IMG/VR virus record: IMGVR_UViG_637000265_000004
Length of the DNA stretch: 32,882 bases
Reading direction: 5' to 3' (one strand)
Source of the DNA: a virus
Taxonomy: Duplodnaviria; Heunggongvirae; Uroviricota; Caudoviricetes
Below are positions 9,989 through 11,329 of this stretch, one piece after another. Each line of letters begins with the position of its first letter. Within the stretch, counting starts at the first letter, position 1. Both the position numbers and the translations under genes were made by a program. A model generated the notes under the pieces. The model was not told where the DNA came from, ran no database searches, and worked only from the letters and a program-made list of their open reading frames with translations.

Positions 9989-10278
9989 TGGTGGATTTAC
10001 GTAAAGCGGCGCGGGGGCAGATGTGCACCGTCAGAATTCCTGGCTACTGCAATCACAATCCCGAAACTTCTGTGCTGGCGCATTACAGGCTGGCGGGGAC
10101 GTGCGGAACAGCGACAAAACCACACGATATGCAGGCAGCGATTGCCTGTAGCTCATGCCACGATTTAATCGACGGGCGGGTAAAAACCAGCGATTACACC
10201 AAAGAAGAATTACGCCTGATGCATGCAGAAGGTGTTTTTCGCACACAAGAAATCTGGAGAAAGGAAGGTTATTTATGA
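9988..10278 (+). CDS. DUF1364/YbcO-like protein
   Basis: Motif LRKAARGQMCTVRIPGYCNHNPETSVLAHYRLAGTCGTATKPHDMQAAIACSSCHD resembles E. coli YbcO. Confidence 0.65.
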   Translation: MVDLRKAARGQMCTVRIPGYCNHNPETSVLAHYRLAGTCGTATKPHDMQAAIACSSCHDLIDGRVKTSDYTKEELRLMHAEGVFRTQEIWRKEGYL

Positions 10279-10829
10279 TTTACCCAACAAATACAGGCAA
10301 AAGCGGGGAACACCTTCGTCTCACCACGCTGGAAAGTGTCTGGATTCAGGGAAAACTGCGCATGTGGGGGCGCTGGTCGTATATTGGCGGCGGTAAGACG
10401 GGAAATATGTTTAACCAGTTGCTGGCATCCAAAAAATTGACGAAAACAGCCGTCAATGAAGCCCTGCGCAGGATGAAAAAAGCGGGAATAGAGAAACCTG
10501 AGCTGGAAGCGTTTTTGCGAGAGATGATCAATGGCAAGCAAAAGACCTGGCTGGCGCATTGTACTGATGCAGAGGCGTTATGTATTGATAGAGTCATAAG
10601 TGAGGTGCTGGCAGAGCATCCTGGATTGATTAGTGTCCTCCGGCAACGGTATGAAGGGCGGGGGATGACTAAGCGTAAAATGGCTGAATTGCTGAATGAT
10701 GCACACCCGAAATGGAGTTTAAGAACCTGTGAAAGACGCATTGAGCATTGGCTAAAGGTGGCAGAATTTATTTTGTACAAACCAATGGTTATGGCTTTTG
10801 GTATAGAGAAAAAAGTTATTGCTTTTTGA
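10275..10829 (+). CDS. Putative late-gene antiterminator (Q-like)
   Basis: Position downstream of nin genes and upstream of a strong terminator plus tRNA cluster, as in Stx-type lambdoid phages; no motif verified. Confidence 0.45.
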   Translation: MIYPTNTGKSGEHLRLTTLESVWIQGKLRMWGRWSYIGGGKTGNMFNQLLASKKLTKTAVNEALRRMKKAGIEKPELEAFLREMINGKQKTWLAHCTDAEALCIDRVISEVLAEHPGLISVLRQRYEGRGMTKRKMAELLNDAHPKWSLRTCERRIEHWLKVAEFILYKPMVMAFGIEKKVIAF

Positions 10830-10904
10830 CACATAAACTGCTTCAATTCCGGTAAGCTTCGCAAAGCTGTATCGCGAGGCGAATAGCAGACATGGACACT
10901 TGAA

Positions 10905-10932
10905 AGAACCCGCTTTATGCGGGTTTTTTTGT
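10905..10932 (+). terminator. Rho-independent terminator (tR'-like)
   Basis: AACCCGC-TTTAT-GCGGGTT followed by TTTTTTT. Confidence 0.75.
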
Positions 10933-11018
10933 GCCTGAAAAATGGCACAGGGCGTTAAACGCGCTGGTGGTCAGATGAGTTTGCAGATGTGATGACATAT
11001 GGTTATTATTCTGCCTCC

Positions 11019-11095
11019 GGCCCTTTAGCTCAGTTGGTCAGAGCGAGCGACTCATAATCGCCAGGTCGCTGGTTCAAGTCCAGCAAGGGCCACCA
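11019..11095 (+). tRNA. tRNA-Ile2/Met (anticodon CAU), ileX/ileZ-like
   Basis: Cloverleaf with 7-bp acceptor GGCCCTT/AAGGGCC, anticodon loop CTCATAA, T-arm GGTTCAAGTCC, 3' ACCA; closely resembles E. coli ileX. Confidence 0.8.
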
Positions 11096-11173
11096 ACCAC
11101 CACTAGCTCATCCGGATAGAGCATCAACCTTCTAAGTTGACGGTGCGAGGTTCGAGTCCTCGGTGGTGGGCCA
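11096..11173 (+). tRNA. tRNA-Arg (anticodon UCU)
   Basis: Acceptor CCACCAC/GTGGTGG, anticodon loop CTTCTAA, T-arm GGTTCGAGTCC, 3' GCCA; 5' end uncertain by 1 nt. Confidence 0.7.
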
Positions 11174-11175
11174 GC

Positions 11176-11251
11176 GCCGACTTAGCTCAGCAGGCAGAGC
11201 AACTGACTTGTAATCAGTAGGTCACCAGTTCGATTCCGGTAGTCGGCACCA
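11176..11251 (+). tRNA. tRNA-Thr (anticodon UGU), thrU-like
   Basis: Acceptor GCCGACT/AGTCGGC, anticodon stem ACTGA/TCAGT with loop CTTGTAA, T-arm AGTTCGATTCC, 3' ACCA. Confidence 0.8.
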
Positions 11252-11254
11252 TAT

Positions 11255-11329
11255 GCGGGCATCGTATAATGGCTATTACCTCAGCCTTCCAAGCTGATGA
11301 TGCGGGTTCGATTCCCGCTGCCCGCTCCA
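11255..11329 (+). tRNA. tRNA-Gly (anticodon UCC), glyT-like
   Basis: Acceptor GCGGGCA/TGCCCGC, anticodon loop CTTCCAA, T-arm GGGTTCGATTCCC, 3' TCCA. Confidence 0.85.

What the first reader, a model, noticed from the sequence alone, without database searches (positions are those of the whole stretch)
10275..11329. Stx-phage-like late regulatory region: Q-like gene, terminator and four tRNAs, with no toxin genes downstream
The order nin-type genes, Q-like gene, strong terminator, tRNA cluster is the arrangement found upstream of stx in Stx-converting phages. Here the cluster has four tRNAs with anticodons CAU, UCU, UGU and UCC (read from the cloverleaf loops), two resembling host thrU and glyT. 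What follows is an integrase instead of stx or lysis genes, suggesting the tRNA cluster served as an integration target for another element.
Basis: partly seen in the sequence, partly recalled or inferred. Interest (0 to 1): 0.5.

Follow-up and report, generated by a model that had tools for sequence, protein, structure and literature searches.

The report
Prophage tRNA cluster hit by island
This is the late-gene control region of a decayed lambda-like prophage in Shigella flexneri (Q antiterminator, terminator, four phage-borne tRNA genes), and a small, already described type of mobile island carrying phage-T7 promoters has inserted exactly at the end of the last tRNA gene; it is a clean example but almost all of its parts are known.

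Summary
Window 10275-11329 holds a Q-type antiterminator gene (DUF1133, related to Q of phage 21), a strong intrinsic terminator (10902-10933), a tRNA promoter homologous to pT of Stx phage 933W, and four tRNA genes: Ile2(CAU), Arg(UCU), Thr(UGU) and Gly(UCC). The Gly tRNA is 100% identical to host glyT and the Thr tRNA is 97% identical to thrU.

An intact E. coli prophage shares this module at 99% identity and continues into holin, lysozyme and Rz genes. Its homology to the window stops exactly at 11329, the CCA end of tRNA-Gly. From 11330 the window instead matches, at 94%, a 7.3-kb island that normally sits at chromosomal glyU, bounded there by an 18-bp direct repeat.

So a glyU-specific island integrated into the prophage's glyT copy. 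The Stx likeness is architectural only: the Q is Rac/phage-21 type, no stx remnant is present, and the relatives are not Stx phages.

The island belongs to the T7-promoter islands of Chen & Schneider (2006). It carries two exact T7 promoters at 13136 and 13256. IS1 truncates it at about 14198. Its attR and the prophage lysis and morphogenesis genes are gone. The window is the S. flexneri sit/ipaH prophage remnant. Overall this is a new member of known kinds, of modest interest.

The parts
9389..9988 (+). nin-region gene, DUF1367 (NinB/Orf-like)
   Evidence: Pfam DUF1367 at 325 bits; PHROG 319.
9988..10278 (+). nin-region gene ybcO (DUF1364, putative nuclease)
   Evidence: Pfam YbcO at 154 bits.
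10275..10829 (+). Q-type late antiterminator gene (DUF1133; Rac/phage-21 type)
   Evidence: Pfam DUF1133 at 368 bits and Phage_antitermQ at 30.2 bits, above the cut-off of 26. PHROG 753. PDB Q21 at E 2e-4. 88% identical to the annotated Q of induced phage vB_EcoS-683R6.
10833..10890 (+). Conserved block just after Q; candidate PR'/qut region (inferred, no consensus promoter found)
   Evidence: Conserved with phage 683R6 and with the pre-tRNA region of a related S. flexneri chromosome (CP037923.1, locus L007; recalled from memory as strain M90T) (alignment A2). The promoter scan gave no hit here.
10902..10933 (+). Intrinsic terminator (tR'-equivalent)
   Evidence: 12-15 bp hairpin plus T run, -19.1 kcal/mol, z = -5.3.
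10980..11009 (+). sigma-70 promoter-like site for the tRNA cluster (pT homologue)
   Evidence: TTTGCA-18-TATTAT. It aligns with the annotated pT of 933W and ends 10 nt before the first tRNA, as in 933W.
11019..11095 (+). tRNA-Ile2 (anticodon CAU, read as AUA after lysidine modification); ARAGORN labels it Met
   Evidence: 96% identical to 933W ileZ and 90% to K-12 ileX. PGAP annotates the homologues as tRNA-Ile.
11097..11173 (+). tRNA-Arg (UCU), phage-type
   Evidence: Only 75% identical to argU.
11176..11251 (+). tRNA-Thr (UGU), thrU-like
   Evidence: 74/76 identical to K-12 thrU.
11255..11329 (+). tRNA-Gly (UCC), identical to glyT. Its 3' end (11305-11329) is the attL core where the island joined.
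   Evidence: 75/75 identical to glyT. The breakpoint lies at 11329/11330.
11330..14197 (+). Remnant of a glyU-type integrative island bearing T7 promoters (left end to the IS1 cut)
   Evidence: 94% identical to the island at glyU in E. coli 21AR0133. The island family is present in 388 of 5426 E. coli genomes.
11444..13048 (+). Island tyrosine integrase (534 aa, intact ORF)
   Evidence: Pfam Phage_integrase. PHROG 1. Relatives sit next to tRNA-Gly(CCC) in 15 of 20 Enterobacterales species.
13061..13300 (+). Two 120-bp tandem units, each with an exact 23-nt T7 class III promoter (13136-13158 and 13256-13278)
   Evidence: Repeat family D4. Exact matches with 0 expected by chance.
13470..13805 (+). 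AT-rich 47-bp repeats and CTCTAGGGTCT-type short repeats (iteron-like, function unknown)
   Evidence: Repeat families D6, D9, D10 and D20. Homologous repeats occur in L003.
14043..14197 (+). 5' fragment of a Rha-family regulator gene, cut by IS1
   Evidence: Pfam Phage_pRha covering profile positions 1-31 of 91. The full-length gene is present in L003.
14198..14966 (+). IS1 copy that truncates the island, abutting a 5'-truncated IS3-family copy (14967-15915)
   Evidence: Repeat and BLAST maps. IS1 transposase ORFs.
8543..9310 (-). IS1 inserted in the prophage just upstream of the nin/Q block
   Evidence: Absent from VL40, where about 10 bp is duplicated at the junction. IS1 ORFs.

Best explanation
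Window 9389-11329 is the nin/late-regulatory module of a lambdoid prophage with Rac-like replication genes and a phage-21-family Q. The host is Shigella flexneri; the window is identical to CP000266.1.

How the module works (inferred from lambdoid biology, not shown here): Q loads on RNA polymerase at the late promoter just downstream of its gene. That lets transcription pass the terminator at 10902-10933 and run through a four-tRNA cluster into the lysis and morphogenesis genes.

The tRNAs also have their own promoter, a homologue of pT. They decode AUA, AGA, ACA and GGA. AUA and AGA are rare in core genes and 2.4 to about 11 times more frequent in the prophage genes; ACA and GGA are only about 1.2-1.9 times more frequent.

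The last tRNA is a phage-borne copy of host glyT. Its 3' end matches 23 of 26 positions of glyU, the normal attachment site of a family of small integrase islands that carry promoters of T7-group phages. One such island integrated by site-specific recombination exactly at the CCA end, leaving an intact tRNA-Gly. This separated the late promoter from the lysis genes.

Later, IS1 and IS3-family insertions and deletions removed the right part of the island, its attR and the prophage lysis, head and tail genes. What remains is integrase, two T7 promoters and a stub of a Rha-type gene, next to tail-fibre genes, sitABCD and ipaH. The island is now immobile.
For: Shown:
- tRNAs, Q and terminator.
- An uninterrupted prophage in E. 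coli VL40 has the same module at 98-99% identity. About 680 bp after tRNA-Gly it continues with holin, RrrD and Rz. Its homology to the window ends at 11329.
- From the tRNA 3' half onward the window is 94% identical to an island beside chromosomal glyU (next to actS and xdhA) in E. coli 21AR0133. That island is bounded by the 18-bp direct repeat TTCCCTTCGCCCGCTCCA, with copies 7342 bp apart.
- E. coli EPSSH018 has a related island in the same prophage slot. Its attL is glyU-type. Its attR keeps the glyT-type 3' end and is followed by a holin gene interrupted by an IS3-family element.
- The integrase family abuts tRNA-Gly(CCC) in 15 of 20 Enterobacterales species. Each island there has T7-group promoter motifs, including K11-type motifs in Klebsiella.
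- tRNA-Gly is 100% identical to glyT.
- The pT homology to 933W is shown.
- Codon enrichment: ATA 9-16 versus 3.8 per 1000 and AGA 10-13 versus 1.1 per 1000.
- IS boundaries.
- No lysis, terminase or stx genes in the window.
- Literature: the title of Chen & Schneider 2006 was confirmed from two reference lists, and a review cites the paper in its section on the sit island.
Against: - No attR copy of the tRNA 3' end exists in the window, so integration is inferred from relatives rather than seen whole here.
- attL in the window keeps the glyT-type trinucleotide GCT, whereas EPSSH018's attL carries the island-type TTC. The crossover point, or this island's attP sequence, is therefore unresolved.
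- A different prophage backbone (L008: NinB/NinE/NinH and a 126-aa Q) carries the same terminator-tRNA-island module at over 99% identity. The module may have reached this prophage by homologous recombination rather than by a fresh integration.
- No consensus PR'/qut was found.
- Q function, tRNA expression and integrase activity are all inferred.
Confidence: 0.85

Rival explanations
1. The module (terminator, tRNAs and the already-inserted island) entered this prophage by homologous recombination with another lambdoid prophage. The site-specific integration happened once, elsewhere. This differs from the best explanation only in where the integration took place.
For: L008 carries the identical integrase and sequence over 99% identical from window 10919 onward, behind a different Q gene and nin set. 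Lambdoid prophages are mosaic; for example, an ORF6N cassette is present or absent between Q and the tRNAs in sister strains.
Against: This still requires an original integration into a prophage glyT copy. It cannot be told apart from the main explanation with the data in hand.
Confidence: 0.3
2. The region is a degraded Stx-converting prophage that lost its stx genes, which the island replaced.
For: The layout matches 933W. The ileZ-like tRNA is 96% identical, and pT is homologous.
Against: The Q protein is unrelated to 933W Q (E 0.63). None of the 32 phage records with this Q type is a Stx phage. There is no StxA or StxB similarity in the window. Intact relatives run from tRNA-Gly straight to lysis genes without stx. 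argN and argO are absent.
Confidence: 0.03
3. The tRNAs are a host chromosomal operon, and the integrase marks the start of a separate element at an ordinary chromosomal tRNA site. The phage genes upstream would then belong to an adjacent, unrelated prophage end.
For: The Thr and Gly tRNAs are 97% and 100% identical to host thrU and glyT.
Against: The host operon is thrU-tyrU-glyT-thrT-tufB, not Ile2-Arg-Thr-Gly. In intact prophages and in induced phage particles the cluster lies inside the phage, between Q and the holin gene. The cluster is preceded by a phage pT homologue.
Confidence: 0.02
4. The integrase is the prophage's own integration enzyme, not that of a foreign island.
For: It is a phage-type tyrosine recombinase adjacent to phage genes.
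Against: The same integrase family with the same downstream T7-promoter segment forms self-contained 4-7 kb islands at glyU, bounded by direct repeats and without any prophage, in E. coli and in 15 other species. The intact prophage relative has no integrase at this position.
Confidence: 0.02

Closest known systems
Late regulatory region of Stx phage 933W (Q, pR', qut, tR', pT, ileZ-argN-argO, stx2AB)
   Same: The order of parts is the same: Q, terminator(s), tRNA promoter, tRNA cluster. The first tRNA is 96% identical to ileZ. The pT -35 and -10 elements and their distance to the tRNA are conserved.
   Different: The Q protein is from a different family, with no similarity. The tRNA set is Ile2-Arg(UCU)-Thr-Gly rather than Ile-Arg-Arg. 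There is no stx.
Non-Stx lambdoid/Rac-type prophages with Q, tRNAs and lysis genes (E. coli VL40 prophage; induced phage vB_EcoS-683R6)
   Same: VL40 has the same nin genes, Q and four tRNAs at 98-99% identity. 683R6 has the same Q (88%) and the Thr and Gly tRNAs.
   Different: In those phages holin, lysozyme and Rz follow the tRNAs. Here an island follows and the lysis genes are missing.
Islands with tandem T7-like promoters in enterobacterial genomes (Chen & Schneider, Nucleic Acids Res 2006; 34:1133; full text not held, so content beyond the title is from memory)
   Same: A tyrosine integrase next to a tRNA gene, followed by exact T7-group promoters, with no RNA polymerase gene. The review PMC7545054 cites the paper in its section on the Shigella sit island.
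   Different: The usual site is chromosomal glyU. Here the site is a prophage-borne glyT copy, and the island is truncated by IS1.
Helper-embedded PICIs (Tommasini, Mageeney & Williams 2023, PMC10111431)
   Same: A small integrase island nested inside a prophage, downstream of its late promoter, so that phage late transcription and replication would pass into it.
   Different: HE-PICIs target late protein-coding genes with a different integrase clade. Here the target is a phage tRNA gene. The island's promoters point to T7-group phages, not the host prophage, as the activating partner.
Shigella/E. coli sit island (Fisher et al. 2009, cited in PMC7545054)
   Same: sitABCD embedded in phage-derived, IS-rich, unstable DNA.
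   Different: The sit genes (18903-22352) are cargo next to the tail-fibre genes. They are not part of the Q-tRNA module or of the T7-promoter island.

Membership tests
Lambdoid late regulatory module (Q antitermination) | Q-family antiterminator protein encoded after the nin genes | tested here: met
   Pfam PF06530 at 30.2 bits (cut-off 26) plus DUF1133. PHROG 753. PDB Q21 at E 2e-4. The gene is preceded by DUF1367 and YbcO genes.
Lambdoid late regulatory module (Q antitermination) | Intrinsic terminator shortly downstream of Q (tR') | tested here: met
   Hairpin at 10902-10933, -19.1 kcal/mol, z = -5.3, followed by a T run.
Lambdoid late regulatory module (Q antitermination) | Late promoter PR' with a Q-utilisation site | tested here: inconclusive
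   No consensus promoter between 10829 and 10902. There is only a conserved block shared with phage 683R6.
Lambdoid late regulatory module (Q antitermination) | Lysis and morphogenesis genes downstream | tested here: not met
   No holin, lysozyme, Rz or terminase in the window. They are present in the intact relative VL40. The module here is a remnant.
Stx-converting phage | stxA and stxB downstream of the tRNA genes | tested here: not met
   tblastn with StxA and StxB finds nothing significant.
Stx-converting phage | 933W/H-19B-type Q and the ileZ-argN-argO set | tested here: not met
   Q against 933W Q gives E 0.63. Only ileZ has a counterpart. None of the 32 phage records with this Q is a Stx phage.
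Phage-encoded tRNA cluster | Valid cloverleaf tRNAs located inside a phage genome | tested here: met
   ARAGORN and Rfam at 56-70 bits. The same cluster lies between Q and holin in prophage VL40 and in phage 683R6.
Phage-encoded tRNA cluster | The tRNAs decode codons over-used by the phage relative to the host | tested here: met
   ATA is 2.4-4.3 times and AGA about 9-11 times more frequent in prophage genes than in about 3700 core codons. ACA and GGA are 1.2-1.9 times more frequent. The sample is small.
tRNA-targeting integrative island | Tyrosine integrase next to the 3' end of a tRNA gene, with the breakpoint at the tRNA end relative to an empty site | tested here: met
   The integrase starts 115 bp after the CCA end. 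Homology to the empty site in VL40 ends at 11329.
tRNA-targeting integrative island | Direct repeat of the tRNA 3' end at the far end (attR) | tested here: not met
   There is no second copy in the window, even allowing 3 mismatches; the island is cut by IS1. The feature is met in relatives: L003 has an 18-bp repeat and EPSSH018 a 23-bp imperfect repeat.
T7-like tandem-promoter islands (Chen & Schneider 2006) | Exact T7-group promoters in tandem downstream of the integrase, with no phage RNA polymerase gene | tested here: met
   Two exact 23-nt T7 promoters 120 bp apart. The longest ORF in the window is 551 aa, so there is no RNA polymerase of about 880 aa. Relatives in 15 species carry such promoter motifs.
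Phage satellite (PICI-like) | Helper-induced excision, replication and packaging | not testable with these tools
   This needs infection and induction experiments. The copy here lacks attR and most of its genes.

The most novel reading that the evidence does not exclude
Phage-borne copies of host tRNA genes (here glyT) could act as secondary attachment sites. They would let a T7-activated, satellite-like island ride inside a temperate lambdoid phage. The island would sit directly under Q-dependent late transcription and spread with the prophage, while still responding to T7-group phages through its own promoters. That would be a two-helper lifestyle. The independent occurrences in S. flexneri, in the different prophage backbone of L008 and in E. 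coli EPSSH018 would then reflect selection rather than accident.
Probability: 0.1. Interest if true: 0.6.

Novelty: new member of a known kind. Interest (0 to 1): 0.3.

Why it matters
The region explains why this Shigella flexneri prophage is dead in its late region. An island cut the late operon off from its promoter, and IS elements then deleted the rest, leaving sit and ipaH as fixed cargo.

It also shows that a tRNA gene carried by a phage can serve as an attachment site for an island that normally uses a chromosomal tRNA. This is a route to nested mobile elements. I did not find it described in the papers I could read.

The inserted island family is common, in 388 of 5426 complete E. coli genomes. 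It carries promoter motifs matched to local T7-group phages, and I found no experimental study of it in the searchable library. That is the more interesting lead for follow-up.

Tried and rejected
- Search for attR: I searched the window for a second copy of the tRNA-Gly 3' end, allowing up to 3 mismatches, and scanned for direct repeats. Nothing was found, so the island's right end cannot be defined here.
Folding settled the matter.
- PR': a consensus search between Q and the terminator gave nothing usable.
- Crossover point: I tried to decide it from the attL and attR sequences. The window (GCT in attL) and EPSSH018 (TTC in attL) disagree, so it is left open.
- Literature: Chen & Schneider 2006 and Fisher et al. 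2009 are not held in the library. Only the title and citations could be confirmed. Four searches for later work on T7-promoter islands or T7 satellites found nothing relevant.
- Junction search: a search in 5426 E. coli genomes for the tRNA-Thr, tRNA-Gly, island junction found only EPSSH018.
- Rejected readings: Stx-phage remnant, host tRNA operon, and the prophage's own integrase (see the rival explanations).
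Full report
**Observation**

ARAGORN finds four tRNA genes in the 32.9-kb window, all on the + strand and packed 1-3 nt apart:
- 11019-11095, anticodon CAT
- 11097-11173, Arg TCT
- 11176-11251, Thr TGT
- 11255-11329, Gly TCC

Rfam's tRNA model scores them 56-70 bits against a gathering score of 29.

Upstream lie three phage genes:
- 9389-9988, a DUF1367 (NinB-like) gene.
- 9988-10278, ybcO.
- 10275-10829, a 184-aa ORF. It matches Pfam DUF1133 at 368 bits and Phage_antitermQ at 30.2 bits (cut-off 26). It also matches PHROG 753 'anti-termination protein Q-like', and more weakly the solved Q protein of phage 21, PDB 6P18/6JNX, at E 2e-4.

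A hairpin at 10902-10933, followed by a T run, folds at -19.1 kcal/mol with z = -5.3. The consensus scanner missed it because its stem extension consumed the T run.

**Identity of the tRNAs**

| tRNA | Closest matches | Reading |
|---|---|---|
| CAU | 96% to ileZ of Stx phage 933W, 90% to K-12 ileX | tRNA-Ile2, reading AUA; PGAP also annotates homologues as tRNA-Ile |
| Thr(UGU) | 74/76 identical to thrU | host-like copy |
| Gly(UCC) | 75/75 identical to glyT | host-identical copy |
| Arg(UCU) | 75% to argU | phage-type |

- The host operon is thrU-tyrU-glyT-thrT-tufB. The window cluster is therefore not the host operon.
- A promoter-like site, TTTGCA-18-TATTAT at 10980-11009, ends 10 nt before the first tRNA. 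It aligns with the annotated tRNA promoter pT of 933W.
- The four decoded codons are over-used in the prophage genes relative to about 3700 codons of core genes. ATA is 9-16 versus 3.8 per 1000. AGA is 10-13 versus 1.1. ACA and GGA are 1.2-1.9 times higher.
- This fits the established idea that phage tRNAs supply decoders for codons that are rare in the host. The sample is small.

**Source of the window**

Window 1444-23048 is 100% identical to CP000266.1:1406586-1428190. From memory, that accession is Shigella flexneri 5 str. 8401. The rest of the window fits a Shigella prophage remnant:
- Three IS1 copies, IS3-family elements and an IS66-family element.
- Tail-fibre genes at 16465-18702.
- sitDCBA at 18903-22352 on the - strand.
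- An IpaH-type E3 ligase gene at 28287-29942.

A review describes the sit island as phage-related, IS-rich and unstable (PMC7545054).

**What follows the tRNAs, and why**

An uninterrupted prophage in E. coli VL40 shares the replication, nin, Q and tRNA regions at 98-99% identity. About 680 bp after tRNA-Gly it continues with holin, lysozyme RrrD, Rz and terminase genes. Its homology to the window stops exactly at 11329, the CCA end of tRNA-Gly.

From the 3' half of the tRNA onward, the window instead matches a 7.3-kb island in E. coli 21AR0133 at 94% identity:
- That island lies beside chromosomal glyU, the tRNA-Gly(CCC) gene next to actS and xdhA.
- It is bounded by the 18-bp direct repeat TTCCCTTCGCCCGCTCCA.
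- The glyU and glyT 3' ends agree at 23 of 26 positions.

In E. coli EPSSH018 a related island (integrase DNA about 77% identical) occupies the same slot, after a prophage Ile2-Lys-Thr-Gly cluster:
- Its attL carries the glyU-type sequence.
- 6356 bp downstream, its attR retains the glyT-type 3' end.
- attR is followed by a phage holin gene interrupted by an IS3-family element.

That is the signature of site-specific integration into the phage-borne tRNA-Gly.

Across 20 Enterobacterales species the same integrase family sits next to tRNA-Gly(CCC) in 15 loci. It is never next to a four-tRNA cluster. Among 5426 complete E. coli genomes only EPSSH018 has the prophage junction. The prophage site is therefore a rare secondary site.

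**Nature of the island**

The integrase at 11444-13048 is followed by two 120-bp tandem units. Each contains the exact 23-nt T7 class III promoter TAATACGACTCACTATAGGGAGA, at 13136-13158 and 13256-13278. None is expected by chance.

After these come AT-rich and CTCTAGGG-type repeats. Then comes the first 155 nt of a Rha-family gene, cut by IS1 at about 14198.

Relatives in other genera carry T7-group promoter motifs in the same place. The Klebsiella island has motifs that match the promoter of Klebsiella phage K11 (consensus recalled from memory).

This is the island type reported by Chen & Schneider (Nucleic Acids Res 2006; 34:1133):
- I could confirm only the title and its citation in the sit-island context. 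The paper itself is not held.
- My recollection that the authors proposed a satellite-like dependence on T7-group phages is from memory.
- Four literature searches found no later experimental work.
- The family is present in 388 of 5426 E. coli genomes.

**Decay**

- The window has no second copy of the tRNA 3' end.
- It has no holin, lysozyme, Rz, terminase or stx homologue.
- IS1 (14198-14966) abuts a 5'-truncated IS3-family copy (14967-15915; a full copy lies at 31130-32393). Tail-fibre genes follow.
- The island's right part, its attR and more than 20 kb of prophage late genes were therefore lost, most likely through IS-mediated deletion. That last step is an inference.

**Mechanism, with the status of each step**

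Shown:
- The parts and their order.
- The exact breakpoint.
- The empty-site and occupied-site relatives.
- The identity of the tRNAs.
- The homology of pT.

Inferred from lambdoid biology:
- Q antiterminates at the 10902-10933 terminator.
- Late transcription would run through the tRNAs into the downstream genes. After the insertion, that means into the island integrase, which has the same orientation.

Inferred from the att comparison:
- The island integrase catalysed the insertion.

Unresolved:
- The crossover point. attL here keeps GCT, while EPSSH018's attL has TTC.
- Where the integration took place. A different prophage backbone (L008) carries the same terminator-tRNA-island module at over 99% identity. 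The integration may therefore have happened in this prophage, or the module may have been imported by recombination.

**Comparison with known systems**

The layout equals that of 933W, but three results argue against Stx descent:
- The Q is unrelated to 933W Q.
- No phage record with this Q type is a Stx phage.
- The nearest relatives are ordinary lambdoid or Rac-type prophages.

Nested islands inside prophages are known as helper-embedded PICIs. Those target late protein-coding genes with a different integrase clade (PMC10111431). A phage tRNA gene as the target is a small variation on that theme.

**Verdict**

The Stx likeness is one of layout only. All parts belong to known kinds. The genome is public and the island type was published in 2006. 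The modestly new points are the use of a prophage-borne glyT copy as a secondary attachment site by a glyU island, and how clearly the comparison shows it.

Noticed in passing
window 13136-13158 and 13256-13278 (+): Two exact 23-nt T7 class III promoters sit in a 120-bp tandem repeat inside the island, followed by AT-rich repeats. The layout recalls the T7 primary origin (two tandem promoters plus an AT-rich stretch; from memory). Related S. flexneri loci (L005-L011) have one unit, and this strain has two. Relatives in other genera carry T7-group promoter motifs, K11-type in Klebsiella.
   Followed up: yes
window 11097-11173 compared with L001 11770-11846: The tRNA-Arg(UCU) here and a tRNA-Lys(UUU) in the same slot of the EPSSH018 prophage are 86% identical. 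This looks like an anticodon switch within one phage tRNA lineage. 'tRNA-Met | tRNA-Lys' pairs are also annotated in PPompW phages.
   Followed up: partly
L001 11928-12002: In EPSSH018 the hybrid tRNA-Gly left by integration carries the glyU-type 3' segment on a glyT body. By my reading of the sequence, this creates mismatches in the T stem and at the base of the acceptor stem. The window's tRNA-Gly is a perfect glyT copy.
   Followed up: partly
window 7728-8052 (+): A hok/sok-type toxin-antisense locus lies in the prophage (Rfam sok at 118 bits; a HOK_GEF gene is called in L004). A weak isrK-like hit lies at 8061-8142 (30.6 bits, below the gathering score of 50).
   Followed up: no
window 10709-10808 compared with L005/L007 and L002: Sister strains (locus L007, CP037923.1; E. 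coli VL40) carry an ORF6N cassette between Q and the tRNAs, plus an IS element in L007. This strain and phage 683R6 lack it, and the 3' 100 nt of Q differs accordingly. This is a mosaic joint just after Q.
   Followed up: partly
window 18903-22352 (-), 22803-23456 (-), 28287-29942 (-): sitDCBA lies next to the tail-fibre genes. A 217-aa integrase fragment sits beside sitA. An IpaH-type E3 ligase gene (LRR_TTSS plus NEL domains) has 60-nt repeats. A tail-fibre assembly gene fragment is duplicated (17961-18260 and 27366-27665).
   Followed up: partly
L033 7805-7880 (Shigella flexneri SFBU1023): A second, more distant member of the same integrase family (73% identical) sits in S. flexneri next to a glyU-like tRNA that ARAGORN reads with a 4-base anticodon (cctg). 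This suggests an altered glyU at the primary site.
   Followed up: no
L003 15477-17429; L018 13360-14586: At glyU in E. coli the T7-promoter island is often followed in tandem by a second island with its own integrase, and then by ETT2 type III secretion genes in some strains. glyU is a multi-occupancy hotspot.
   Followed up: no
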